A program made the position numbers and the translations under genes. Of a stretch of 64,000 nucleotides of DNA, positions 5,804 through 56,986 are shown one piece after another (position 1 is the stretch's first letter; every line of letters starts with the position of its first letter). Location: assembly GCA_964532285.1 (NCBI GenBank), contig CAZHHB010000004.1:425-64424 (forward strand), given 5' to 3'. The DNA comes from an uncultured Candidatus Saccharibacteria bacterium (lineage in GTDB: Bacteria; Patescibacteriota; Minisyncoccia; Phycocordibacterales; PALSA-1337). Below the pieces are notes generated by a model, which made no database searches, had not been told where the DNA came from, and saw only the letters and a list, made by a program, of their open reading frames with translations.

Positions 5804-5855
5804 TTGACTTACTGGTGTTTCGAGAGTAGTTTTTGGTCAGGTTTGGGAATGGTTC
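5804..5855 (+). promoter_or_regulatory. Sigma70-like promoter (TTGACT-17-TAGTTT) plus 29-nt leader; copy 1 of a duplicated promoter/leader
   Basis: TTGACT at 5804-5809, a 17-nt spacer, then TAGTTT at 5827-5832. The stretch 5827-5855 'TAGTTTTTGGTCAGGTTTGGGAATGGTTC' is identical to 9083-9111. Confidence 0.5.
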
Positions 5856-5886
5856 CCAATGTAGCACAAAGAAAGAAAAACAAAAT

Positions 5887-7245
5887 ATGCAAACAAACGA
5901 AACGCAGTCGGCTGGCATACAGCCAATGAGCGAAGGGAAGACCAAACAAATCTTTCCCATCCCTGGCAGTCCTGCCAGAGTCGTAGTCAAATCGAAAGAT
6001 GACATCACTGCTGGTGACGGTGCCAAACACGACATTATCGAAGGTAAAGCCGCCCTGTCCACGCGGACAACCTGCAATGTGTTCCGACTCCTCCGGGCAT
6101 GCGGTATCCCTGTCGCCTTCGAGGATCAGGATGGCCCCACGGAATTCATCGCCGACAAGTGCACCATGTTGTCGTACGAGGTCGTGATCCGGCGCGAAGC
6201 CCACGGCTCATATCTAGATCGGAACCCTCATCTGCCGAAGGGACATGTCTTCCCGAATTTGGTCCTGGAGTTTTTCCTCAAGACTCATGGCAAGATCTGG
6301 ATCAATCCGGTGACCGGACGAAGTTATGAACTGCAGAAGGATGACCCGCTGATGGTGTCTGACCATCAAAAAGGTTGGATTGAGTTGTATTACCCGGGGC
6401 ATACTTCCGAAGAAAGGAAGATTGCTTCGAAGGGGCAACTCGTCGGGCAAAAACCCTTCCTCGTCCTGTCTGAAGAGGAAATTTTCTTCCGTGGAGATGA
6501 GGGGTCGCTCATGGCGCGCATGGGAAACATCGCTCGCCAAGCTTTCCTGGTTCTGGAGAAAGCGTGGCAGATCCAGGGGCGCAGGCTCGTGGACTTCAAG
6601 GTTGAGTTTGGTATCAACACTGAAGGACTGCTTCTGCTCGCCGATGTCATTGACAATGACTCCTGGCGGTTGATTGAACCTTCCGGCGGGTACATGGACA
6701 AACAGGTGTATCGCGACGGCGGGGATCTGAATACGGTCACGGCGAAGTATCGCGAAGTCGCGGATTTGACTGATCGGTTCGAAATTCCTCCCCAGCGTCT
6801 CATCATCTGGTGTGGGTCTGACAAGGATCACTTCACGGCAGTCGAAGATCTTTGGTTGAAGCTTGAACCGAAGCCACAGTTCCAATCCCTGCCGATCACC
6901 TGCTCGGTGCACAAACAGCCGGCCTTGGCGTACAAAATCCTGCAGCATCATCTGCAGGAGGGGCCGTACGATTCGGTTATTATCGCCTATATCGGTCGAA
7001 GCAATGGCGCTGGTCCGGTCCTGGCGGCGAATTGCACAGTTCCGGTCATCACCGTGCCGGCGGGATACAAGGAATTCCCCGAAGATGTTTGGTCGTCACT
7101 CCGCACTCCGAGCAATGTGCCGGTCATGACGGTGCTCGAGCCGGCAAATGCCGTACTTGCGGCTCTGCAGATCCTGGCGATGCGCAATCCGAGCATCTAT
7201 GCCGCCCTGCGTTTCGAACAGGAAAAGCGGTTGGTGAATGTTTAA
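5887..7245 (+). CDS. purC/purE: Bifunctional SAICAR synthetase (PurC) / AIR carboxylase (PurE-like) fusion
   Basis: The N-terminal ~300 aa carry the PurC motif 'TAGDGAKHDIIEGKAALSTRTTCNVFRLLRACGIPVAF'. The C-terminal ~150 aa ('VIIAYIGRSNGAGPVLAANCTVPVITVP') resemble PurE, the AIR-carboxylase fold. The reading frame opens at TTG 5833; the first ATG is at 5887 and an alternative ATG is at 5926. The region is GC-rich relative to its flanks. Confidence 0.75.
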   Translation: MQTNETQSAGIQPMSEGKTKQIFPIPGSPARVVVKSKDDITAGDGAKHDIIEGKAALSTRTTCNVFRLLRACGIPVAFEDQDGPTEFIADKCTMLSYEVVIRREAHGSYLDRNPHLPKGHVFPNLVLEFFLKTHGKIWINPVTGRSYELQKDDPLMVSDHQKGWIELYYPGHTSEERKIASKGQLVGQKPFLVLSEEEIFFRGDEGSLMARMGNIARQAFLVLEKAWQIQGRRLVDFKVEFGINTEGLLLLADVIDNDSWRLIEPSGGYMDKQVYRDGGDLNTVTAKYREVADLTDRFEIPPQRLIIWCGSDKDHFTAVEDLWLKLEPKPQFQSLPITCSVHKQPALAYKILQHHLQEGPYDSVIIAYIGRSNGAGPVLAANCTVPVITVPAGYKEFPEDVWSSLRTPSNVPVMTVLEPANAVLAALQILAMRNPSIYAALRFEQEKRLVNV

Positions 7246-7266
7246 TTACAGCGTTCCAAAGACAAG

Positions 7267-7295
7267 CTCCGAGGGTAACCTCCCGGAGTTTTTTT
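7267..7295 (+). terminator. Rho-independent terminator after purC/E
   Basis: CTCCGAGGGTAACCTCCCGGAG hairpin followed by TTTTTTT. Confidence 0.6.
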
Positions 7296-7410
7296 ATTAT
7301 CTTTTTTATTGCCTTTTTGGTGTTTTTGAGTAGTATTGATTTTAGAAAGCATCCGTCCACGAATTGTGGCGGAAAAATTAATAAAAACAAAGCAATAGAA
7401 AGGGGCACAT

Positions 7411-8994
7411 ATGCTTAACCTATCATTGCCGGGTAACCCCCGGTACCAACCGAAAGACCTACAGAAATATTTCGGCTACGACAACCTCTTCAGGTGTGTG
7501 GTCGAAGTGGAGATTGCAACCATGAGGACGCTGGCGGAGATCGGAGTCATTCCTCCTGAGGATATCGCTCTCCTCACGCCGGAACTTGAACAGAAACTCC
7601 TGGCGATCACGACGACCGAAGTCGACAGGGTCGAGAATACCGACACTGAAGAATTCGGCAAGAAGACCAAGCATGACATCCGCGCCTGGGTTGTGATAGC
7701 AAAGTCTCGGGTGCCAGAAGGTCTTCGCCGCTGGATTCACATTCCGCTTACAAGCTATGACGTCCTTGATACGGCTCGGTCGCTTCAGTTCTCTCGTGCT
7801 CACACAGAGGTGGTTAAACCCTTGGCTGATAAAGTCATCAAGCATTTCATTGAGCGGACTAGGACTTTCGCTTCGGTCAAGCAGATCGGTCGTACGCATG
7901 GTCAGCATGCGCTTCCAATCACAGTCGGATTCTGGTTCGCCACGATCTTGAGTCGGATTCTCCGGAATATTGAAAGTGCTAATATGGCAGCTTGTGGATT
8001 GGTAGGCAAGATCTCCGGTGCTGTCGGCGCGTACAATGCGCAGAAGGCGGTTGGGATCACATCAACATGTGCTCTGAACAGACTTGAAGCTATTCAAGCC
8101 TTCATGAGTAATCATGGGGTCACCAGTACAAACGATATTCCAGCGGGGATGATGAGTCGGATCATGTCAGAGCATCCAACTTTTGAAGAATTGGTATTGA
8201 AAAAGCTCGGCCTTAAACCGGCGCCGATCAGTACCCAGATCCTGCCACCCGAACCGCTCGCCGATTATCTGTTCGCATGTGTGAAGTTGTCGGCCTCCCT
8301 CGGCCAATTCGGTCGGGACGGTCGTAACCTCATGCGGAGCGAGATCGCTGAGCTCTGTGAACCGTTCGACAAGGGTCAAGTCGGTTCATCAACCATGGCG
8401 CACAAGAGGAACCCGATTAATTTCGAGAACCTTGAAAGCACATGGCTCAAGAACAAGAATGAGTTCGGCAAGGTCCTGGATGTATTCCTAAGTGATCATC
8501 AACGGGACCTGGTGAACAGTGCCGTTGCTCGGGATTTCCCGACAATCGTTGTAAATCTGGTTTCGCAACTGAACACTCTCTTGCGCGGCGACCCGCCATT
8601 CATCGCTCGGATCTCTGTTGACCAGGAAGCCTGCAAACGCAATCTGGAGCTTCAAGGTGTGGAGATTCTCGCAGAGCCAGTGCAAATAGCCCTTCAGATG
8701 GCAGGCTATACGGGAGATGCTCACAAGGTTGTAAACGAGCAGGCGCTTCCGCTCGTCAAACAAGGCAATTCCTGGTTGGGTGCGATCAAAAAGATTGCTG
8801 AAGATCAGAACGACCAAGGATTGTTGGAGGCCAGATCGAAATTACCGGATGATGTCATGTCGCTGATCGAAGATGTTGGCGGCCATTCCGAAAATTACAC
8901 TGGTCTGGCGGCCGAAAAAGCTCTGGAGATTGCCAAGGCTGCGGAAAACTATCTGAACGCTCCGGCTGTCATGGCTGCGTTTCTCGGTGTCTGA
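7411..8994 (+). CDS. purB: Adenylosuccinate lyase (PurB), fumarate-lyase superfamily
   Basis: Contains the fumarate-lyase signature 'GSSTMAHKRNPINFENL' (GSSxMxxKxN). Overall length and similarity fit ASL. GC-rich. Confidence 0.85.
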   Translation: MLNLSLPGNPRYQPKDLQKYFGYDNLFRCVVEVEIATMRTLAEIGVIPPEDIALLTPELEQKLLAITTTEVDRVENTDTEEFGKKTKHDIRAWVVIAKSRVPEGLRRWIHIPLTSYDVLDTARSLQFSRAHTEVVKPLADKVIKHFIERTRTFASVKQIGRTHGQHALPITVGFWFATILSRILRNIESANMAACGLVGKISGAVGAYNAQKAVGITSTCALNRLEAIQAFMSNHGVTSTNDIPAGMMSRIMSEHPTFEELVLKKLGLKPAPISTQILPPEPLADYLFACVKLSASLGQFGRDGRNLMRSEIAELCEPFDKGQVGSSTMAHKRNPINFENLESTWLKNKNEFGKVLDVFLSDHQRDLVNSAVARDFPTIVVNLVSQLNTLLRGDPPFIARISVDQEACKRNLELQGVEILAEPVQIALQMAGYTGDAHKVVNEQALPLVKQGNSWLGAIKKIAEDQNDQGLLEARSKLPDDVMSLIEDVGGHSENYTGLAAEKALEIAKAAENYLNAPAVMAAFLGV

Positions 8995-9135: not shown

Positions 9136-9684
9136 TTGAAAAAAATATTAAGTTTTATGAGTGTGGTAATGAGTATCTTCGGATACTCTTGTTTGATAGT
9201 GATGACCGCCAAGGGGACAGGTGAAGGGCTCTCCATTTCCACCTTCGGCCTCTGGTCTGCATTGGCGTGGATAACGAGCTTCACGATGTTGAGTCAAAAA
9301 GCCAATCCCGCAGTTCCCATTATCTACGGTGTTGGTGCAACTACGACGACGATCATACTACTCTTCAAAGGGAGGTATGGTTGGTCTGCTCTGGATACTG
9401 TCATAGCAATACTCGTCGTCTTGTGTGTGATACTTTGGCTTACCAGCGGTCCTCGATTGGCTCTTATTCTCTCTGTTGTGGCGGCAGCCATCGCTACTAT
9501 TCCATTCGTCGTTCTGACATGGAAGTCCCCAGAGATGAGCCCCATCATTCCAAATTCAGCATTTCTCGTGGCGAATTACCTAGCCTTTGTTTCGGCCAAG
9601 GCGTGGACTATCGAGGACAGACTGTATTCAGGGGTGAATGTGGTGGTTTGTTCGCTATTGATCATTCCGTGGTTGTTTCGTTAA
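9136..9684 (+). CDS. Hypothetical polytopic membrane protein (TTG start)
   Basis: 182-aa ORF with about 6 TM segments. A strong SD 'AAAGAGAGG' sits 6 nt upstream of TTG 9136. Family not recognised. Confidence 0.5.
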   Translation: MKKILSFMSVVMSIFGYSCLIVMTAKGTGEGLSISTFGLWSALAWITSFTMLSQKANPAVPIIYGVGATTTTIILLFKGRYGWSALDTVIAILVVLCVILWLTSGPRLALILSVVAAAIATIPFVVLTWKSPEMSPIIPNSAFLVANYLAFVSAKAWTIEDRLYSGVNVVVCSLLIIPWLFR

Positions 9685-9834
9685 TCTCGCGTGCGATCAC
9701 GATGATTTCTCAAATAGGCTCAGACGCAAGTTTGGGTCTTTTTTTATGTGTTAAATTATTAATAGATTTGTAAGATTTCATCCCTTAGATTCTGGTATTT
9801 TTTGGTAAATTTTCTCTAAAATAGCCTTATTTAT

Positions 9835-9878
9835 TACCGGGAATTGGAAGAATTTGCAAAAAATGCTAATTCCCGGTA
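9835..9878 (+). promoter_or_regulatory. Inverted repeat (10-bp arms, 22-bp spacer), candidate operator upstream of the GHKL gene
   Basis: TACCGGGAATT at 9835-9845 and AATTCCCGGTA at 9868-9878, about 10 nt upstream of the GTG start at 9889. Confidence 0.4.
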
Positions 9879-9888
9879 AAATCGTGTT

Positions 9889-10857
9889 GTGAAAATACAT
9901 TTACCAAATAGCGCATTTCTGGGTAATATTAACTCATTTCTTAGAAGTTTCGATTCATCTTCCCCAGATGAACTAATAGTTACTTCTAATAATAAATGGG
10001 TATCAGTTCATCCCGTCGTCATTGCAATGGTCGCCGCTCTAGGTAAGGGTATATCTGCCCAAAAGCTTAGATTCGAAGCTTTTGAAGCAAAGTCCAAGCA
10101 TTATTTTGAGAGAATAGGTCTATTTCGTTTTTTGGGTAAAGACTCAGGCATTTCAATAACAAAACATGATTCCTCTGGTCGTTTTATCCCTATAACAAAG
10201 ATTAAAAATTCTAACGAACAGAGTAAGTTCATTACGGAAATGATTCCTCTTTTACATCTCGCGGACAACCCTAGACAAGCAGAACCCATTCAGTATATTG
10301 TTGGTGAGTTGGTGAGAAATGTTATTGAACATTCTCAATCTAAGGACGGTGCTATAGTTTGTGCTCAATATTACAAAAAAAGTAACACTATCAGGATTGG
10401 AATTGTTGACGGGGGTGTTGGTATTAAAAAAACAATAACCCGTTCCCATCAAGCCGTAGATGACTTTGAAGCCATTAAACTTGCTCTAATGCCAGGTATA
10501 ACAGGCACAACAAGAAAGGAGGGTGGTACTGCTGAAAATGTTGGAGCTGGATTGTTTTTTATCAAATCCATTGCTCATGTGAACCGCGATTTTTTCTTAA
10601 TATATAGCGGTCAGGCAATGTTTAAATTACTTAAAAGACCCCTTGAAGGATCAGTGTTTTTACAGGCTGACCCTCTTCAAGACAGACATTCTAAAGAAAA
10701 AATGCTTCCATATTGGAATGGAACTGTTGTGGGGATAGATATATCTCTAGATAATACAAAAGAATTCTCTGTCATCTTGGATTTGATTCGTAATACATAT
10801 GCGACATCAGTTAGAGAGAGGAGAAAAGAAAAGTATAGAAAACCTAAATTTATATGA
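9889..10857 (+). CDS. GHKL/Bergerat-fold ATPase, histidine-kinase-like ATP-binding protein with ~130-aa N-terminal extension
   Basis: N-box 'ELVRNVIEH', G1 'VDGGVGI' and G2 'GTAENVGAGLF' are present, and the ATP-binding core resembles anti-sigma-factor kinases (RsbW/SpoIIAB). GTG start. The stop overlaps the next gene as ATGA. Confidence 0.6.
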   Translation: MKIHLPNSAFLGNINSFLRSFDSSSPDELIVTSNNKWVSVHPVVIAMVAALGKGISAQKLRFEAFEAKSKHYFERIGLFRFLGKDSGISITKHDSSGRFIPITKIKNSNEQSKFITEMIPLLHLADNPRQAEPIQYIVGELVRNVIEHSQSKDGAIVCAQYYKKSNTIRIGIVDGGVGIKKTITRSHQAVDDFEAIKLALMPGITGTTRKEGGTAENVGAGLFFIKSIAHVNRDFFLIYSGQAMFKLLKRPLEGSVFLQADPLQDRHSKEKMLPYWNGTVVGIDISLDNTKEFSVILDLIRNTYATSVRERRKEKYRKPKFI

Positions 10858-11144
10858 CAACAATAAAATTACAACCAATAGTTGGATCTTTTGCTGAGAA
10901 TAAAGATAAGGCAAAAGAGATTCGTATAAAGAAAATTAATCCTATATTAAAAAAAGGAGAGAGTATAAAACTAGATTTTGAAGGTGTTACCTTGGCAACT
11001 CAATCTTTTATACACGCTCTAATCAGCCAGTTGATTAGACATTATGGAACCGAAGTCCTAGATAGGATTCAATTTAAGAATTGTAATAACACACTGAAGA
11101 AAATTATTGAAATTGTTACTGACTATATGCAATTTAGAGAATAG
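10854..11144 (+). CDS. Small STAS-like (DUF4325-type) protein, translationally coupled partner of the GHKL ATPase
   Basis: 96 aa, 'ESIKLDFEGVTLATQSFIHALISQLIRHYGTEVLDRIQFKNCNNTLKKII', fits a STAS / anti-sigma-antagonist-like alpha/beta fold. It shares a 4-nt ATGA overlap with the upstream gene. Confidence 0.5.
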   Translation: MTTIKLQPIVGSFAENKDKAKEIRIKKINPILKKGESIKLDFEGVTLATQSFIHALISQLIRHYGTEVLDRIQFKNCNNTLKKIIEIVTDYMQFRE

Positions 11145-11191
11145 CCAGATTTCTAATCCCCAACCAATTTTTCCTGCTATACTATGAGCGC

Positions 11192-11971
11192 ATGGAAAAT
11201 TCTGAGAAATCACAAAACAGAGGTCTGTCGGAGGTTGTCATAAAAGATCTGCGTATTCTCGCTTCCTCATTTTGTATTCTATTATTTCTCGTCGGGATCA
11301 ATTCTATTTTTCAAAATTTATTTGCAGTTAAAGAGTCTGTTTCAGAAGTTGTCATTCCTAGACCACTGTCTTCACAAGAGATAACGCACGGCGATCAGAC
11401 CAAAAATCAAGTCATATTTACATTCGATGGAGGTAGTGGATCTGAGTCTGGCAAAGCTATTTTAGATACATACAAAAAACACAATATCAAAGCCACTTTT
11501 TTCCTCACAGGTAAATTTGTAGAAGAAAATCCAGAGCTTGTGAGAAGTATGGTCGCTGGAGGCCACGAGATATTCAATCATACTTATGATCACCCACATC
11601 TAGATGAAATTTCCGATCAGGAAATTATTGTAGAATTTGAAAAGATGGATCAGGTTTTGACGAGGACAGTCGGCATATCATCCAAACCTTTTTTCCGTCC
11701 ACCATATGGCAGTCGCGATCAGAGGGTGTTGGATATTGCATACAAGGCAGGGTATCAGTCCGTCTATTGGTCTATTGACGCCGGTGATTGGGAAGAGTCT
11801 AATGGCACCACTCCTGATCAAGTCAAATACAGAATACTTTCAAATCTTACTTCTGGTAATATTTACCTTATGCATATAGGAGATACGATTACTGCCACTA
11901 TCCTAGATGATGTATTCAATACAATTGAGTCTAAGGGGTACAAGATAGTTTCCTTGTCAGAAGGGTTGTAA
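11192..11971 (+). CDS. Polysaccharide deacetylase (NodB homology domain), membrane-anchored
   Basis: Carries the NodB-domain motifs 'FTFDGGSG', 'HEIFNHTYDHPHL' and 'RPPYGSRD', plus an N-terminal TM segment. Confidence 0.75.
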   Translation: MENSEKSQNRGLSEVVIKDLRILASSFCILLFLVGINSIFQNLFAVKESVSEVVIPRPLSSQEITHGDQTKNQVIFTFDGGSGSESGKAILDTYKKHNIKATFFLTGKFVEENPELVRSMVAGGHEIFNHTYDHPHLDEISDQEIIVEFEKMDQVLTRTVGISSKPFFRPPYGSRDQRVLDIAYKAGYQSVYWSIDAGDWEESNGTTPDQVKYRILSNLTSGNIYLMHIGDTITATILDDVFNTIESKGYKIVSLSEGL

Positions 11972-16884: not shown

Positions 16885-17577
16885 ATGAAAATGGGCAAAT
16901 TAGCCCAAGGAGATAAGATTATGAACACAGAATTCATGATTGCAGAAGTAACGCCAGGGAAACTGAATGCGCTGGTAAAAAATATCATGCGTCAAACAGG
17001 CGAAACTGATCCCAATGAAGCTGTACGTCTCGTTAATTCGGGTGAGTGGGTAGTTTCGAAACCGACTCGCAACTGGCGCGAACAAGACGGCGTCATCTAC
17101 TTCTCGGTCACCAGCGATGGCACGACCGGCGAGGACTGGATCACCCGGCTCGAAAGCAAAGGCTTCCGCGTGGGTGACTACGCCAAGCAGGTGCTTCGTT
17201 CGCCGGACTTCAAGCCGACCAGTGGCATGACGACCGAAGTCGCCGTTCTCAAGGGCATGCTCTTCGAGGACAACGATCGGATCACGAAGAAGATTCGCGC
17301 CGAGGCAGACAAGCGCAAGCTGTCCAAGCCGAACGCCGAACTGGCCTGCCTCATCCGTGAGAAGTTCACGGACAAGGAGATTGAAGCGATGGGTCTGTGG
17401 TACATCGTTGCTATGCACGAGCCCATCAACGACTCCGATGGCGATCCGCGCCTCCTCCTCGCTTCCCGCGCTGACGATGGTCGGTGGCTGGATGCGTACT
17501 GCGGCAACCCTGGCCGCAGGTGGAGTCGTGGGCGCGGTTTTGCCTTCGTCGTCCCGCAAGTCAGTTCTCAACACTAA
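16885..17577 (+). CDS. DGR target protein (variable C-terminus, degenerate C-type-lectin/FGE-like ending 'GFAFVVPQ'); GC-rich
   Basis: The last ~45 codons form the VR. An SD 'AGGGGAA' precedes the ATG at 16885 (alternative ATG at 16921). No signal peptide is visible. The body of the gene is much more GC-rich than neighbouring genes. Confidence 0.7.
   Translation: MKMGKLAQGDKIMNTEFMIAEVTPGKLNALVKNIMRQTGETDPNEAVRLVNSGEWVVSKPTRNWREQDGVIYFSVTSDGTTGEDWITRLESKGFRVGDYAKQVLRSPDFKPTSGMTTEVAVLKGMLFEDNDRITKKIRAEADKRKLSKPNAELACLIREKFTDKEIEAMGLWYIVAMHEPINDSDGDPRLLLASRADDGRWLDAYCGNPGRRWSRGRGFAFVVPQVSSQH
17434..17560 (+). repeat. DGR variable repeat (VR)
   Basis: Aligns base-for-base with 17994-18120. All 18 mismatches are at positions where the TR has A. 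The resulting codon changes include AAC(N)->CGC/CTC/TCC/GAT/AGT and TAC(Y)->TGC. Confidence 0.9.
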
Positions 17578-17993: not shown

Positions 17994-18120
17994 TCCGATG
18001 GCGATCCGAACCTCCTCAACGCTAACCGCGATGACGATGGTCGGTGGCTGAATGCGTACTACGACAACCCTGACAACAGGTGGAATCGTGAGAACGGTTT
18101 TGCCTTCGTCGTCCCGCAAA
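17994..18120 (+). repeat. DGR template repeat (TR), invariant donor copy
   Basis: A non-coding remnant of the target C-terminus with no in-frame start. It carries adenines, including several AAC codons, at every site that differs in the VR. Confidence 0.9.
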
Positions 18121-18125
18121 TCTCT

Positions 18126-43482: not shown

Positions 43483-43520
43483 CCAAGATCCGATCTCGGT
43501 ATACCAAGATCGGATCTTGG
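43483..43520. repeat. Twin-palindrome intergenic repeat, copy 2
   Basis: CCAAGATCCGATCTCGG-TATA-CCAAGATCGGATCTTGG, 8 nt after the stop of the upstream gene. Confidence 0.85.
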
Positions 43521-43566
43521 ATAACTGTTTCCCATTTCTTCTCCTATGAGGTAAACTAGGTTTTAC

Positions 43567-45237: not shown

Positions 45238-46056
45238 ATGAAATACATAGATATACATGGACATGTTAATTTCCCCGAATACGACGGTGACAGGGAAGCG
45301 ACGCTCAAAAGAGCCACGGATGCTGGCGTGTCAATGATCACTGTAGGTACTGATCTTGAAACTTCTAGATCGGCGGTTGAATTGGCGAATAAGTTTGAGA
45401 ATATGTATGCCACGGTTGGAACCCACCCTACTTCCAAAGAGGTTATAGATATTGAAGCTTACAATAATCTTGCAAATGATCCGAAAGTTGTTGCTATCGG
45501 CGAGTGCGGTCTGGATTACTTTAGGTCAGATGAAGGAACTGCCGATGAACAGCGCAAGGTGTTTGAAATGATGATTGATCTGGCAAATAGGGTAAATAAG
45601 CCTTTGATGTTGCATTTGCGAAATCCTGTTGTCAGAGGTCCGACCTCTACACCGACCTCTGCATACAAAGACGCCTACACTATTCTCAAGGAGCGTTCAA
45701 AAGTCTTGGGTAATCTCCATTTCTTTGCTGGGAGCATAGAGGAGGCGAAGCCGTTCTTAGATTTAGGATATTACTTTTCTTTTACAGGAGCCATAACATT
45801 TGGCAATAACTATGAGGAAATAATTAAATACATTCCCATTAATAGGATAATGTCGGAGACTGACTGTCCATTTGTTGCGCCTATTCCATATAGAGGTAAA
45901 AGGAATGAACCAGCTTATGTCATTGAAGTGGTCAAAACTATTGCTAAGATTAAAGGCCAATCTGAGGAAGTGGTCAGGGAACAGGTGTTGAAGAATGCTG
46001 AAACATTTCTACCAAGATCCGATCTCGGTATACCAAGATCCGATCTTGGAACTTGA
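45238..46056 (+). CDS. tatD: TatD-family metal-dependent DNase; C-terminal tail encoded by a palindromic repeat
   Basis: 'IDIHGHVNFPEY' and a 'DLGYYFSFTGAITF' region. The last 14 codons ('LPRSDLGIPRSDLGT') are read through repeat copy 4. Confidence 0.8.
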   Translation: MKYIDIHGHVNFPEYDGDREATLKRATDAGVSMITVGTDLETSRSAVELANKFENMYATVGTHPTSKEVIDIEAYNNLANDPKVVAIGECGLDYFRSDEGTADEQRKVFEMMIDLANRVNKPLMLHLRNPVVRGPTSTPTSAYKDAYTILKERSKVLGNLHFFAGSIEEAKPFLDLGYYFSFTGAITFGNNYEEIIKYIPINRIMSETDCPFVAPIPYRGKRNEPAYVIEVVKTIAKIKGQSEEVVREQVLKNAETFLPRSDLGIPRSDLGT

Positions 46057-46106
46057 GATTTTATCAGGAATTTATCTCTTTTTTATCAGGAATTTATCTT
46101 TGTTTG
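46011..46106. repeat. Composite repeat: twin palindrome (copy 4) plus tandem 'TTATCAGGAATTTATCT' x2 module
   Basis: ACCAAGATCCGATCTCGGTATACCAAGATCCGATCTTGG, then TTATCAGGAATTTATCTCTTTTTTATCAGGAATTTATCTTTGTTTG. The same ~95-bp composite occurs at 56835-56920. Confidence 0.85.
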
Positions 46107-46290
46107 CTAGAGTTCTCTTAGATCTTTGAAATTTCATCTATGATTATTTTGTTCATAACCCTTGCGTTACGGGTCATTTATGTGGTAGCCTCATATTAAT
46201 TATAAGTAATCGCGGTAAGTCCCAAGAGTCTTGAATAATAAGACTATGGGTCCCGAAGGAGAAATCCGAGGGTCACTGACCGCAAAAAAT

Positions 46291-47546: not shown

Positions 47547-47560
47547 AAGTAGAGAATGCA

Positions 47561-47729
47561 AAAAGGAACAGTTGTAATTTTTAGTTACCTGCGAGACTCG
47601 CTCCGTGAAATTGCTAGGTAAAAGGCTCAGGAATTGTAAACAATTCCAACGACATTCGCCTTTTACCAAGCAATTTCTACTGCGCTCAGACAAGGTTCTC
47701 GGCAACTAAAAATTACAATTGTTCCTTTT
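47561..47729. repeat. Copy A of a ~110-bp conserved core (47590-47700) nested in the loop of the rpsR/efp bidirectional terminator palindrome
   Basis: Outer arms GGAACAGTTGTAATTTTTAGTTACC / GGCAACTAAAAATTACAATTGTTCC, with T-runs on both strands. The core 'CCTGCGAGACTCGCTCCGTGAAATTGCTAGGTAAAAGGCTCAGGAATTGTAAACAATTCCAACGACATTCGCCTTTTACCAAGCAATTTCTACTGCGCTCAGACAAGGTTCTCGGC' is about 96% identical to 53137-53245. Confidence 0.8.
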
Positions 47730-47731
47730 TG

Positions 47732-53079: not shown

Positions 53080-53114
53080 GGTGTAATGATAACATAAAAA
53101 TGTGCGAACCCTAA

Positions 53115-53267
53115 CAAACAGGTTTCCTTGCAAGCCTGCGAGACTCGCTCCGTGAAATTGCTAGGTAAAAGGCTCAGGAATTATAAATAATTCCAACGAC
53201 GTTCGCCTTTTACCAAGCAATTTCTACTGCGCTCAAACAAGTTCTCGGCTTGCAAGGAAACCTGTTT
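53115..53267. repeat. Copy B of the ~110-bp conserved core (53137-53245) nested in an unrelated perfect 22-bp palindrome
   Basis: Outer arms CAAACAGGTTTCCTTGCAAGCC / GGCTTGCAAGGAAACCTGTTTG. The core differs from copy A at about 5 positions. It sits in the divergent region between ftsK and the 53441 gene. Confidence 0.8.
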
Positions 53268-53440
53268 GTTGGAGTTCGACCAGGAAAGGCCCCTCACTTC
53301 GTTCGGGACGCCCACTTTAAAAAAAGTGGGCGCTTGCAACTTACTTTTTAAAGACTATAATGGGCATGTCTCATAAGAGGGGAAATTGATTTTTTATCAA
53401 GGACAAAGATAAAATCTATAAAAGACATACATTTACGATA

Positions 53441-56665: not shown

Positions 56666-56834
56666 TTGTGTTGGGGGAAATAAGGATAAACTTCGAGTCG
56701 CCTTGCTGTGTTATACTAATTGCAACATGGTTAACCCCTTCGACCGTAGTTTCTTCAAATTCTTCTTCGGATTCATTTGTATTCTATTTGTAAGTTTTGT
56801 AATTATCTATGTTGCTGGACGCTACTGATTCTAT

Positions 56835-56920
56835 CCAAGATCCGATCTTGGTATACCGAGATCCGATCTTGGACTTTATCAGGAATTTATCTCTTTTTTA
56901 TCAGGAATTTATCTTTGTTT
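56835..56920. repeat. Composite repeat: twin palindrome (copy 5) plus tandem 'TTATCAGGAATTTATCT' x2 module
   Basis: CCAAGATCCGATCTTGGTATACCGAGATCCGATCTTGG, then ACTTTATCAGGAATTTATCTCTTTTTTATCAGGAATTTATCTTTGTTTG. The downstream module is identical to 46061-46106. Confidence 0.85.
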
Positions 56921-56986
56921 GATACGATTCAGACATTATTTACGCTGAGCTTTGTCGAAGCATCGGCTTAATGTCGTATCAAAATT

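What the first reader, a model, noticed from the sequence alone, without database searches (positions are those of the whole stretch)
9835..11144. Translationally coupled GHKL-ATPase plus STAS-like pair with palindromic operator: a divergent partner-switching-like module
Gene 9889..10857 has a complete Bergerat ATP-binding fold (N-box ELVRNVIEH, G1 VDGGVGI, G2 GTAENVGAGLF), like the anti-sigma kinases RsbW/SpoIIAB, but with a ~130-aa N-terminal extension and no HisKA domain. Its stop overlaps (ATGA) the start of a 96-aa protein with a STAS/anti-sigma-antagonist-like pattern (DUF4325-type). The pair is preceded by a perfect 10-bp inverted repeat TACCGGGAATT-N22-AATTCCCGGTA, 10 nt from the GTG start. 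A GHKL kinase plus STAS substrate is the architecture of partner-switching regulators, yet this genome shows no obvious alternative sigma target here. Pairs of this kind also appear in uncharacterised defence-island contexts. The module sits next to the horizontally acquired pur island.
Basis: partly seen in the sequence, partly recalled or inferred. Interest (0 to 1): 0.7.

Follow-up and report, generated by a model that had tools for sequence, protein, structure and literature searches.

The report
Self-regulated kinase plus STAS-protein mobile cassette
This is a compact, horizontally spreading two-gene unit, made of a stress-sensor-type protein kinase and its small partner protein with its own switchable promoter, which belongs to a signalling family first described in 2026 but carries no effector gene and occurs in both bacteria and archaea.

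Summary
K (9889-10857, 322 aa) and S (10854-11144, 96 aa) overlap by ATGA. A perfect 12-bp inverted repeat (9834-9845 / 9868-9879) brackets the -35 element.

- **S:** a single STAS/DUF4325 domain (pLDDT 94). Its profile hits the solved structure of VapS.
- **Closest known:** CapK/CapS and VapK/VapS/VapC (Chambers et al., EMBO J 2026). This pair lacks their HTH domains, downstream operon and PIN toxin.
- **Pairing:** S follows K in 103 of 103 informative loci. Flanking genes differ and are mostly housekeeping.
- **Operator:** the half-site ACCGGGA/TCCCGGT recurs in about 88 of 92 distinct upstream regions. It overlaps sigma-70 promoters in bacteria and TATA-box promoters in DPANN archaea, and the start codon position implies leaderless mRNA.
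- **Who reads it:** a sister clade uses other half-sites. The only fixed class-specific protein changes lie in K residues 6-12.
- **Phospho-acceptor:** the canonical position is an invariant Gln50, flanked by Thr49 and Ser51.

Autoregulation is well supported; the signal and the output are inferred or unknown. I rate it a new variant of a known kind.

The parts
9817..9832 (+). Conserved 5' edge of the cassette (TAAAATAGCCTTATTT), specific to the window's subgroup
   Evidence: Nucleotide similarity to L001 and L029-L034 begins at about 9798-9822. The motif is visible in the subgroup's upstream alignments. Its role is unknown.
9834..9845 (+). Left operator half-site TTACCGGGAATT (core ACCGGGA)
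   Evidence: Perfect inverted repeat with 9868-9879. The core is conserved in about 88 of 92 distinct loci.
9854..9859 (+). -35-like hexamer TTGCAA (alternatively TTTGCA at 9853-9858), lying between the two half-sites
   Evidence: The promoter scan finds TTGCAA-17-TAAAAT. TTGACA occupies the same position in most relatives.
9868..9879 (+). Right operator half-site AATTCCCGGTAA (core TCCCGGT), which overlaps the -10 element
9877..9882 (+). -10-like hexamer TAAAAT. It ends 6 nt before the GTG, which implies a leaderless mRNA.
   Evidence: In 59 loci with a sigma-70 layout, the -10 element ends 5-11 nt (mode 6) before the start codon. The transcription start site is inferred and has not been measured.
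9889..10857 (+). Gene K: a CapK/VapK-like STAS-GHKL Ser/Thr protein kinase, 322 aa, GTG start
9904..9927 (+). Codons 6-13 of K (PNSAFLGN), the candidate operator-specificity element
   Evidence: The motif is invariant in the class that uses ACCGGGA. The only fixed differences from the clade that uses GTAGA are P6S, F10Y and G12R. Synonymous sites vary freely, so the constraint is on the protein.
9889..10263 (+). K residues 1-125: the STAS-like N-terminal domain, containing invariant Trp37 (codon 9997-9999)
10270..10746 (+). K residues 128-286: the GHKL kinase core. N box at 10306-10332, G1 at 10408-10422, G2 at 10522-10551.
10747..10854 (+). K residues 287-322: a long amphipathic helix with a basic tail (RERRKEKYRKPKFI), specific to this family
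   Evidence: AF2 predicts a helix at 287-315. The region is conserved in both clades. It is not covered by the alignment to the VapK-like protein and has no Pfam match.
10854..11144 (+). Gene S: a 96-aa single-domain STAS (DUF4325) protein, translationally coupled to K through ATGA. Thr49-Gln50-Ser51 are encoded at 10998-11006.

Best explanation
The locus is an autonomous, horizontally mobile cassette of about 1.34 kb (roughly 9.80-11.14 kb). It belongs to the CapK/CapS - VapK/VapS kinase-STAS signalling superfamily.

**Shown**
- K consists of a STAS-like N-terminal domain, a SpoIIAB/RsbW-class GHKL protein-kinase domain with an intact ATP site, and a basic C-terminal helix.
- S is a bare STAS domain.
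- S is always encoded directly after K, usually with an ATGA overlap.
- The pair has its own promoter, whose -35 and -10 elements are bracketed or overlapped by conserved palindromic half-sites.
- These half-sites are kept across phyla, and across the bacteria/archaea divide, while the core promoter is swapped between TTGACA/TATAAT and a TATA box.
- The start codon lies where transcription should begin.

**Inferred**
1. The mRNA is leaderless. S is made by termination-reinitiation, which would let the cassette be expressed in either domain of life.
2. A cassette-encoded protein represses the promoter through the operator. It is most probably K acting as a dimer or tetramer, because the only class-specific residue changes that track the operator change lie in K residues 6-12 and none lie in S.
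3. By analogy with CapK/VapK, a stress signal activates the kinase. The candidate signal is single-stranded DNA bound at the STAS/GHKL groove that contains Trp37.
4. K then binds and phosphorylates S. Thr49 is the best acceptor candidate, because the canonical position holds Gln50. This changes the K-S state and de-represses the operon.
5. No effector is encoded in cis. The output is therefore most likely K itself, acting as a kinase toxin or growth-arrest effector held in check by S in a toxin-antitoxin-like or abortive-infection-like way. Less likely, the output is a target encoded elsewhere in the genome.
For: **Architecture and homology**
- Motifs, Pfam and alignments.
- AF2 models.
- hhalign of K against the VapK-like protein of a Deinococcus HTH-K-S-PIN operon: 97.6% probability, E 4.7e-12, over residues 8-252.
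- The S profile hits VapS (PDB 9z7o) at E 3.4e-4.
- Published mechanism of CapKS and VapKSC: PMC13373217.

**Physical coupling**
- S follows K in 103 of 103 informative loci, 91 of them with the ATGA overlap.
- Natural K-S fusions exist: 326-451-aa proteins, phrog_5816 and the N-terminus of PADLOC DrmA model PDLC02567.

**Operator and promoter**
-. There are 59 sigma-70 layouts with the -10 element ending 5-11 nt before the start codon. There are 18 TATA-box layouts with the TATA box 29-33 nt upstream of it.
- Apart from a duplicated orphan copy of the promoter about 335 nt further upstream in two related loci, the operator occurs only at this promoter in about 0.97 Mb of fetched DNA.

**Operator-protein covariation**
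- Clade-2 cassettes keep the same layout but use other half-sites.
- The only fixed differences at class-invariant positions are K P6S, F10Y and G12R. There are none in S.
- Hypergeometric P = 2e-5 for the clustering of differences in residues 6-13.
- Synonymous sites in these codons vary freely.

**Autonomy**
- Cassette boundaries.
- Heterogeneous neighbours.
Against: - Neither protein has a recognisable DNA-binding domain, so operator binding by K rests on covariation alone.
- Two cases show that residues 6-12 cannot be the whole recognition code. L114 has a near class-1 motif (PNSAYIGN) with a different operator. L077 has a changed motif (PHGAFLGN) with the class-1 operator.
- The covariation sample outside class 1 is only 8 loci from one clade, so shared ancestry could produce the same pattern.
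- The canonical phospho-acceptor position is Gln, so S may not be phosphorylated at all.
- The K model has low confidence in the ATP lid and in residues 241-269.
- No toxicity, kinase-activity or ssDNA-response data exist for this family.
- The pair is absent from IMG/VR viral contigs, and cultured phages and plasmids give only distant hits. Defence genes are rare among its neighbours. This weakens a defence reading.
Confidence: 0.6

Rival explanations
1. Classical anti-sigma partner switching. K would be an anti-sigma factor that sequesters an alternative sigma factor encoded elsewhere, and S would be its anti-anti-sigma factor, as with SpoIIAB/SpoIIAA or RsbW/RsbV.
For: The best structural matches for K are SpoIIAB, RsbW and UsfX. 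S matches SpoIIAA, RsbV and RsbS. Public sources name homologues 'anti-sigma regulatory factor'.
Against: - Cassettes 61-69% identical occur in Woesearchaeota and Nanoarchaeota behind TATA-box promoters. Archaea have no sigma factors.
- No sigma-factor or PP2C-phosphatase gene is linked in any of the 32 neighbourhoods.
- K carries an extra STAS-like domain and a C-terminal helix that anti-sigma kinases lack.
- The acceptor Ser is replaced by Gln.
Confidence: 0.05
2. A CapKS-type controller of the adjacent gene or genes. The pair would regulate the downstream polysaccharide deacetylase / DsbA / VKOR genes in response to stress.
For: CapK/CapS regulate the operon downstream of them (PMC13373217). 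In the window, the next gene (11192-11971) is on the same strand, only 47 nt after S.
Against: - S lacks the wHTH domain that makes CapS a repressor.
- Sequence similarity between related cassettes stops exactly at the S stop codon.
- Downstream genes differ in every locus and are often on the opposite strand.
- No second operator lies downstream of S.
Confidence: 0.07
3. A pure selfish addiction module, that is, a type II toxin-antitoxin-like pair with no sensing role. K would be a toxic kinase or ATPase. S would be a labile antitoxin or pseudo-substrate that blocks K through its non-phosphorylatable Gln50. The K-S complex would autorepress the operon.
For: - Its organisation is typical of toxin-antitoxin systems: two genes, compact, translationally coupled, autoregulated through promoter-overlapping palindromes, widely transferred, and inserted between housekeeping genes.
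- Relatives of S act as antitoxins: VapS against VapC, and PIN.4 VapC genes are coupled to DUF4325 genes (PMC5499597).
- Gln sits at the acceptor site.
Against: - K retains the STAS-like sensor domain and the aromatic residue that aligns with the ssDNA-contacting residue of VapK/CapK.
- Thr49 is nearly invariant (Thr or Ser in 142 of 150 representatives), which suggests a conserved hydroxyl function.
- Sequence conservation of 60-84% identity across domains of life is unusually high for a toxin-antitoxin pair.
- Toxicity is untested.
- This reading overlaps with the best explanation and differs mainly in denying a signal input.
Confidence: 0.2
4. The inverted repeat is an RNA or terminator hairpin, or a chance palindrome, and not an operator.
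For: A 12-bp stem with a 22-nt loop could fold. It lies in an intergenic region after a convergent-free upstream gene.
Against: - The upstream gene has its own terminator at 9716-9739 followed by a T-run.
- The arms flank the -35 element and overlap the -10 element, so they lie upstream of the predicted transcription start site.
- In most relatives, the same half-sites form two separate 15-bp palindromes instead of one hairpin.
- There is no Rfam match.
Confidence: 0.03

Closest known systems
VapK/VapS of the VapKSC toxin-antitoxin/defence system (Chambers et al., EMBO J 2026, PMC13373217; VapS-VapC structure PDB 9z7o)
   Same: - K has the same STAS + GHKL architecture with no N-terminal HTH.
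- hhalign to a VapK-like protein from a Deinococcus K-S-PIN operon gives 97.6% probability over residues 8-252.
- S is a DUF4325-type STAS protein whose profile hits VapS.
- Gene order is K then S.
   Different: - No VapC/PIN gene follows S in any of 103 loci.
- S ends after the STAS fold and lacks the C-terminal inhibitory helix of VapS (VapS residues 94-116).
- VapS Ser48 aligns with Gln50.
- K has an extra C-terminal basic helix.
- The cassette has its own conserved palindromic operators and is found in archaea.
CapK/CapS, 'controller of adjacent pathways' (same paper)
   Same: - It is a kinase-STAS pair with palindromic operators that overlap the promoter and provide negative autoregulation.
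- CapS binds the same half-site in a 'narrow' (1-bp spacing) and a 'wide' arrangement. Here too the half-sites occur as 1-bp-spaced palindromes in most loci and as a wide pair in the window.
   Different: - CapK has an N-terminal HTH and CapS a C-terminal wHTH that binds DNA. Both are absent here.
- There is no downstream immune operon.
- The operator lies upstream of K instead of upstream of S.
- The DNA reader is inferred to be K, not S.
SpoIIAB/SpoIIAA and RsbW/RsbV partner-switching modules; SiaB/SiaC
   Same: They are the best structural matches for the kinase domain and for the STAS partner. All are Ser-kinase-plus-STAS pairs.
   Different: - There is no sigma factor, diguanylate cyclase or PP2C phosphatase partner.
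- K has the extra STAS-like domain and C-terminal helix.
- Gln occupies the acceptor position.
- The pair is present in archaea.
Type II toxin-antitoxin operons with kinase toxins (for example HipBA)
   Same: Both are two-gene, autoregulated units with palindromic operators over the -35 and -10 elements, and both are mobile (general knowledge of HipBA).
   Different: There is no homology to HipA, HipB or Doc. Toxicity is untested. There is no HTH antitoxin.
N-terminal module of a DISARM DrmA variant (PADLOC model PDLC02567) and phage family phrog_5816
   Same: K (profile positions 74-248) and S (316-389) match consecutive parts of the DrmA model. phrog_5816 is a GHKL + DUF4325 fusion.
   Different: Here the two parts are separate proteins. 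There is no helicase or other DISARM gene.

Membership tests
CapK/VapK-type STAS-GHKL kinases | GHKL domain of the SpoIIAB/RsbW class with intact N, G1 and G2 boxes | tested here: met
CapK/VapK-type STAS-GHKL kinases | STAS-like domain directly N-terminal to the kinase domain | tested here: met
CapK/VapK-type STAS-GHKL kinases | Conserved aromatic residue that stacks on ssDNA (CapK W68, VapK F54) | tested here: inconclusive
   Invariant W37 aligns with W53 of the Deinococcus VapK-like protein. Its equivalence to F54 of Escherichia VapK is inferred from position only.
CapK/VapK-type STAS-GHKL kinases | Kinase gene immediately followed by the gene for its STAS-domain substrate | tested here: met
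   True in 103 of 103 informative loci.
CapK/VapK-type STAS-GHKL kinases | Kinase activity stimulated by single-stranded DNA | not testable with these tools
   Requires biochemistry.
CapK/CapS proper | HTH at the N-terminus of the kinase, wHTH at the C-terminus of the STAS protein, and a regulated operon downstream | tested here: not met
   Neither protein has an HTH. S is 96 aa. There is no conserved downstream gene.
VapKSC | PIN-domain VapC toxin gene after the STAS gene, and a C-terminal inhibitory helix on the STAS protein | tested here: not met
   No PIN gene follows S in the window or in the related loci. S ends with the STAS fold.
VapS/CapS/SpoIIAA-type phospho-STAS proteins | Conserved Ser/Thr acceptor at the start of helix alpha-2 | tested here: inconclusive
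   VapS S48 and the conserved Ser of the Deinococcus VapS-like protein both align with invariant Gln50. Thr49, the N-cap of helix 50-64, is Thr or Ser in 142 of 150 family representatives. Ser51 is replaced by Gly in 8.
Anti-sigma partner-switching modules (SpoIIAB/AA, RsbW/V) | A sigma-factor target and a PP2C phosphatase | tested here: not met
   Neither is linked in 32 neighbourhoods. The cassette occurs in archaea.
Pfam DUF4325 (STAS-like) | Match to PF14213 above the gathering score | tested here: met
   53.8 bits against a cut-off of 23, E 1.6e-14.
Type II toxin-antitoxin systems | One gene product is toxic, and the other neutralises it by direct binding | not testable with these tools
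   Only the operon organisation and the autoregulatory operator fit. Toxicity is unknown.
DISARM (DrmA) | DrmA helicase/DUF1998 core with DrmB, DrmC and a methylase | tested here: not met
   Only positions 74-389 of the DrmA model are matched. There are no helicase or DISARM genes nearby.

The most novel reading that the evidence does not exclude
K is a three-in-one protein. In CapK/VapK the STAS/GHKL nucleic-acid groove senses single-stranded DNA. Here that groove has become a sequence-specific reader of the cassette's own operator, through K residues 6-12 and about 34-37. K would then be repressor, stress sensor and kinase effector at once, and S would be its only, non-DNA-binding antagonist. 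The result would be a minimal, Shine-Dalgarno-independent, leaderless toxin-antitoxin or abortive-infection switch. It would work unchanged in both bacteria and archaea, because only the core promoter had to be exchanged.
Probability: 0.25. Interest if true: 0.75.

Novelty: new variant of a known kind. Interest (0 to 1): 0.6.

Why it matters
**Family scope.** The CapK/CapS - VapK/VapS family was described only in 2026, and only with an attached effector or regulated operon. This cassette shows that a large branch circulates as a bare kinase-STAS pair. That branch has at least 495 metagenomic loci and 609 clusters (at 50% identity) of S-type proteins. It is found among genome-reduced CPR bacteria, DPANN archaea and other uncultured lineages.

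**Open questions it raises**
- What is the output of a kinase-STAS switch that has no effector?
- How is an operator read without an HTH domain?

**A testable natural experiment.** Operator half-sites covary with a 7-residue N-terminal motif, which a motif swap could test directly.

**Cross-domain transfer.** It is also a clean example of a regulatory cassette crossing the bacteria/archaea boundary. The operator and a leaderless, reinitiation-coupled mRNA are kept, and only the core promoter is exchanged.

Tried and rejected
- **Source contig.** Looking up the annotated 276-aa version of K (P0003) found nothing on record.
- **NCBIfam.** Only sub-threshold hits to kinase ATP-binding domains for K, and nothing for S.
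- **PDB sequence search with the K profile.** No relative found.
- **Viral and plasmid collections.** The IMG/VR viral contig scan found none. Cultured phages and plasmids gave only 23-29% identical partial hits, with no adjacent S detected by tblastn.
- **Rfam.** Nothing in 9500-11400, so an RNA-element reading was rejected.
- **Operator elsewhere.** None in the 64-kb window. In about 0.97 Mb of fetched loci, the only other copies are a duplicated orphan promoter in L079 and L088. There is therefore no evidence for a regulon, although whole genomes could not be scanned.
- **Defence-island test.** A pooled scan of 128 flanking ORFs against PADLOC and Pfam found no recurrent family (maximum 3 of 128). 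Most PADLOC hits were generic ATPase or FtsK matches.
- **Nucleotide-level constraint.** I considered that the conserved N-terminal peptide might reflect an operator inside the coding region. This was rejected because synonymous sites vary freely.
- **Domain search on the ends of K.** A Pfam search of K residues 1-130 and 249-322 alone found no DNA-binding domain. The weak hit of residues 270-322 to phrog_35117, 'HTH DNA binding protein' (E 0.072), is not significant.
- **Foldseek against the PDB.** It returned only weak STAS matches (best E 0.05). VapS and CapS entries did not appear among them, possibly because they are too recent for that copy.
Full report
**1. The observation**

The two ORFs are as described: K at 9889-10857 (+, GTG, 322 aa) and S at 10854-11144 (+, ATG, 96 aa), overlapping by ATGA. 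The Bergerat motifs are present and invariant in homologues: N box E140/N144, G1 D174-G-G176-V-G178, and G2 G212-G213...G219-A-G221.

Pfam places HATPase_c and HATPase_c_2 on residues 130-229 only, with no HisKA domain. It assigns S to DUF4325 at E 1.6e-14.

The inverted repeat is a perfect 12-mer: TTACCGGGAATT (9834-9845) and AATTCCCGGTAA (9868-9879). The spacer is 22 nt, and the right arm ends 9 nt before the GTG. The half-site pair occurs once in the window, against 0.07 expected.

The public annotation starts K 46 codons too late. All homologues align from residue 1.

**2. What the proteins are**

K is therefore a STAS-like domain, an RsbW-type kinase, and a family-specific long helix with a basic tail (residues 287-322). 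Neither end of K matches any Pfam domain.

**3. Link to a characterised family**

The S profile hits PDB 9z7o, 'Escherichia VapS' (E 3.4e-4). This led to Chambers et al., EMBO J 2026 (PMC13373217). That paper describes two systems.

- **CapK/CapS.** CapK is HTH-STAS-GHKL and CapS is STAS-wHTH. ssDNA activates CapK, which phosphorylates CapS Ser54. The repressor dimer dissociates and an adjacent immune operon is de-repressed.
- **VapKSC.** VapK is STAS-GHKL. VapS is STAS plus a C-terminal helix and acts as an antitoxin. VapC is a PIN toxin.

I found a K-S-PIN operon on a Deinococcus gobiensis plasmid. Its kinase aligns with the K profile at 97.6% probability (E 4.7e-12) over residues 8-252, that is, across both domains. 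K's invariant Trp37 aligns with that kinase's Trp53, close to the published ssDNA-stacking Phe54 of VapK.

Membership of the CapK/VapK superfamily is therefore well supported. The defining extras of CapKS (HTH, wHTH, downstream operon) and of VapKSC (VapC, VapS tail) are absent. The paper does not mention stand-alone pairs, archaea or DUF4325.

**4. The acceptor residue**

Two independent alignments place the conserved phospho-Ser opposite invariant Gln50. These are E. coli VapS and the Deinococcus VapS-like protein. The motif comparison with SpoIIAA (FMDSSGL), made from my own knowledge of that sequence, gives the same result.

Thr49 is the N-cap of helix 50-64, and Ser51 follows Gln50. Among 150 family representatives the triplet is TQS in 125. 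Position 49 is Thr or Ser in 142. Position 51 tolerates Gly in 8.

Thr49 is therefore the best acceptor candidate. A non-phosphorylatable, pseudo-substrate S cannot be excluded.

**5. Co-occurrence and autonomy**

K has 2563 homologues in the first search, and S has 309. These include 61-69% identical copies in Woesearchaeota, Nanoarchaeota, Kaiserbacteria, Saganbacteria, Elusimicrobia, Planctomycetia and a deltaproteobacterium. A metagenome scan found at least 495 more.

Of 107 loci with a close relative of K, 103 carry S immediately downstream, 91 with the ATGA overlap. The other four are contigs that end within about 110 nt of the K stop codon.

Nucleotide similarity to related cassettes runs from about 9800-9820 to the S stop codon at 11144. 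The cassette's GC content is 0.32-0.37, against 0.40-0.44 in the flanks.

Flanking genes differ between loci. Examples are ADH and fumarase, gyrB, LeuRS, RmuC and L21, FtsK, and trigger factor. In 128 flanking ORFs from 32 independent loci, no Pfam family recurs more than three times, and bona fide defence genes are rare. There is no paralogue of K or S in the window.

**6. The operator and promoter**

This is the main new finding. The upstream 90 nt of 92 distinct loci show the half-sites ACCGGGA and TCCCGGT in about 88. There are three layouts.

- **Sigma-70 layout (59 loci).** One 15-bp palindrome (ACCGGGA-w-TCCCGGT) precedes TTGACA. A second fills the spacer and overlaps a TAtAAT box. That box ends 5-11 nt (mode 6) before the start codon.
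- **TATA-box layout (18 loci, including the Woesearchaeota loci L006 and L028).** The palindrome precedes a TTTATAAA box that starts 29-33 nt before the start codon. A further half-site often abuts the ATG.
- **Window subgroup (80-100% identity).** Only the two outer half-sites are kept, 35 bp apart, around TTGCAA-17-TAAAAT at 9854-9882.

In every layout, the start codon sits where transcription should begin. No Shine-Dalgarno sequence precedes K or S. Leaderless translation plus termination-reinitiation would explain expression in both domains of life; this is inferred and not measured.

The upstream gene has its own terminator at 9716-9739. The full palindrome occurs nowhere else in about 0.97 Mb of fetched DNA, except as a duplicated orphan promoter in L079 and L088.

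An operator kept across phyla and domains while the core promoter is replaced argues for a cassette-encoded repressor.

**7. Who reads the operator**

A sister clade, 53-60% identical and found in Saccharimonadia and others, keeps the layout but uses different half-sites. The table pairs each K N-terminal motif with its operator.

| K motif, residues 6-13 | Operator half-site |
|---|---|
| PNSAFLGN (class 1) | ACCGGGAAT |
| SYRDYLRN | CTGTCGAGCGTG |
| SNADYLRN | CCGGTAGAACGT |
| SNYDYLRN | CCAGTAGAGTACGT |
| SNSDYLRN | CCTGTAGAGCGTG |
| SYSDYLRN | CTCTGTAGAGCGCG |
| SYYQYLRN | AAGTAGAACGCG |
| PNSAYIGN | CCTGTATAGTAC |

A residue that reads class-specific bases must be constant within an operator class and differ between classes. 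Among positions at least 97% invariant in class 1, the only ones fixed to another residue in the GTAGA class are K P6S, F10Y and G12R. No position of S qualifies.

Against the two GTCGA loci, 6 of 12 such positions fall in residues 6-12 (hypergeometric P 2e-5). All 26 invariant positions of S are unchanged. Codons 5-13 vary freely at synonymous sites, so the constraint acts on the protein.

I therefore infer that K, through its N-terminal segment, is the operator reader. The basic C-terminal tail may help. N34, three residues from Trp37, is another class-specific position.

There are caveats:
- only eight non-class-1 loci are available, all from one clade;
- L114 (PNSAYIGN) and L077 (PHGAFLGN) show that the motif is not a complete code;
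- no DNA-binding fold is recognisable.

**8. Mechanism proposed**

*Shown:* the architecture, the homology, the strict pairing, natural K-S fusions, and the conserved operator over the promoter. The fusions are 326-451-aa proteins, phrog_5816 and the N-terminus of a PADLOC DrmA model.

*Inferred:*
- K, or the K-S complex, represses its own leaderless operon.
- A stress signal activates the kinase. By homology this is ssDNA bound at the groove containing Trp37.
- K engages and phosphorylates S, probably on Thr49, which changes the K-S state and de-represses the operon.

*Unknown:* the output. No effector is encoded in cis, and the cassette works in organisms without sigma factors. The most economical reading is that K itself is the effector and S restrains it, as in a toxin-antitoxin-like or abortive-infection-like switch. 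A target encoded elsewhere remains possible.

**9. Rivals**

- **Anti-sigma partner switching** is contradicted by the archaeal distribution and by the absence of any linked sigma factor or PP2C phosphatase.
- **CapKS-like control of the neighbouring genes** is contradicted by the cassette boundary, the variable neighbours and the lack of a wHTH.
- **A signal-independent addiction module** remains a serious alternative (about 0.2).
- **An RNA or terminator hairpin** is contradicted by the position of the repeat upstream of the transcription start and by its split into two palindromes in most relatives.

**10. Verdict**

The pair is a new stand-alone variant of the recently described CapK/VapK-CapS/VapS kinase-STAS family. 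It has an unusually clear, cross-domain conserved autoregulatory operator and a testable protein-operator covariation.

Interest is 0.6. Novelty: new variant of a known kind.

Noticed in passing
window 46007-46109 and 56829-56924; 43483-43523; 47559-47731 and 53105-53278; 17434-17562 and 17994-18122: These are families of short repeated intergenic elements. One is a pair of about 100 nt, 87.5% identical, containing tandem TTATCAGGAATTTATCT units, with partial inverted copies. Another is a 116-nt pair, 95.7% identical, lying inside self-complementary stretches of about 175 nt. They could be MITE-like or regulatory repeats.
   Followed up: no
window 5833-8994: The pur genes (a PurC/PurE-like fusion and PurB) have GC of 0.51-0.56, against 0.36-0.44 around them. 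This is consistent with foreign origin. They lie outside the K-S cassette and are not linked to it in other genomes.
   Followed up: partly
window 9889-10026: The public annotation of K (P0003, 276 aa) omits the first 46 codons. The GTG at 9889 is supported by every homologue aligning from residue 1, and by the promoter geometry.
   Followed up: yes
L027:5737-6747: A 336-aa fused HATPase_c_2 + DUF4325 paralogue lies directly upstream of a separate K-S pair, so two related modules sit in tandem.
   Followed up: no
L079:5655-5700 and L088:~264: An orphan second copy of the promoter and operator (palindrome, TTGACA, half-site) lies about 335 nt upstream of the functional one, with no K gene behind it.
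   Followed up: partly
proteins P0381, P0396 (and other ~260-aa representatives): S-type DUF4325 domains carrying the TQS motif are fused to DUF7226, a domain of unknown function. This may be an effector partner in other variants of the system.
   Followed up: no
PADLOC model PDLC02567 (DrmA), profile positions 74-389: One DISARM DrmA model carries a complete K-like and S-like module at its N-terminus. This implies that some DrmA helicases are fused to this kinase-STAS sensor.
   Followed up: no
window 9817-9832: The near-palindromic motif TAAAATAGCCTTATTT lies just 5' of the left half-site and is conserved only in the window's subgroup (L001, L029-L034). Its function is unknown.
   Followed up: no
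L116 (Deinococcus gobiensis plasmid P5, NC_017806.1 39477-41829): This is a four-gene HTH regulator - ATP-binding (VapK-like) - STAS-like - PIN operon. It is a vapKSC-type locus with a separate HTH gene upstream.
   Followed up: partly
literature: Francisella prophage vB_FhiM_KIRK, Fhv_0046/Fhv_0047: A 293-aa hypothetical protein is followed by a 112-aa DUF4325 protein, between the CI repressor and the integrase. This may be a prophage-borne K-S-like pair (PMC7924643).
   Followed up: no
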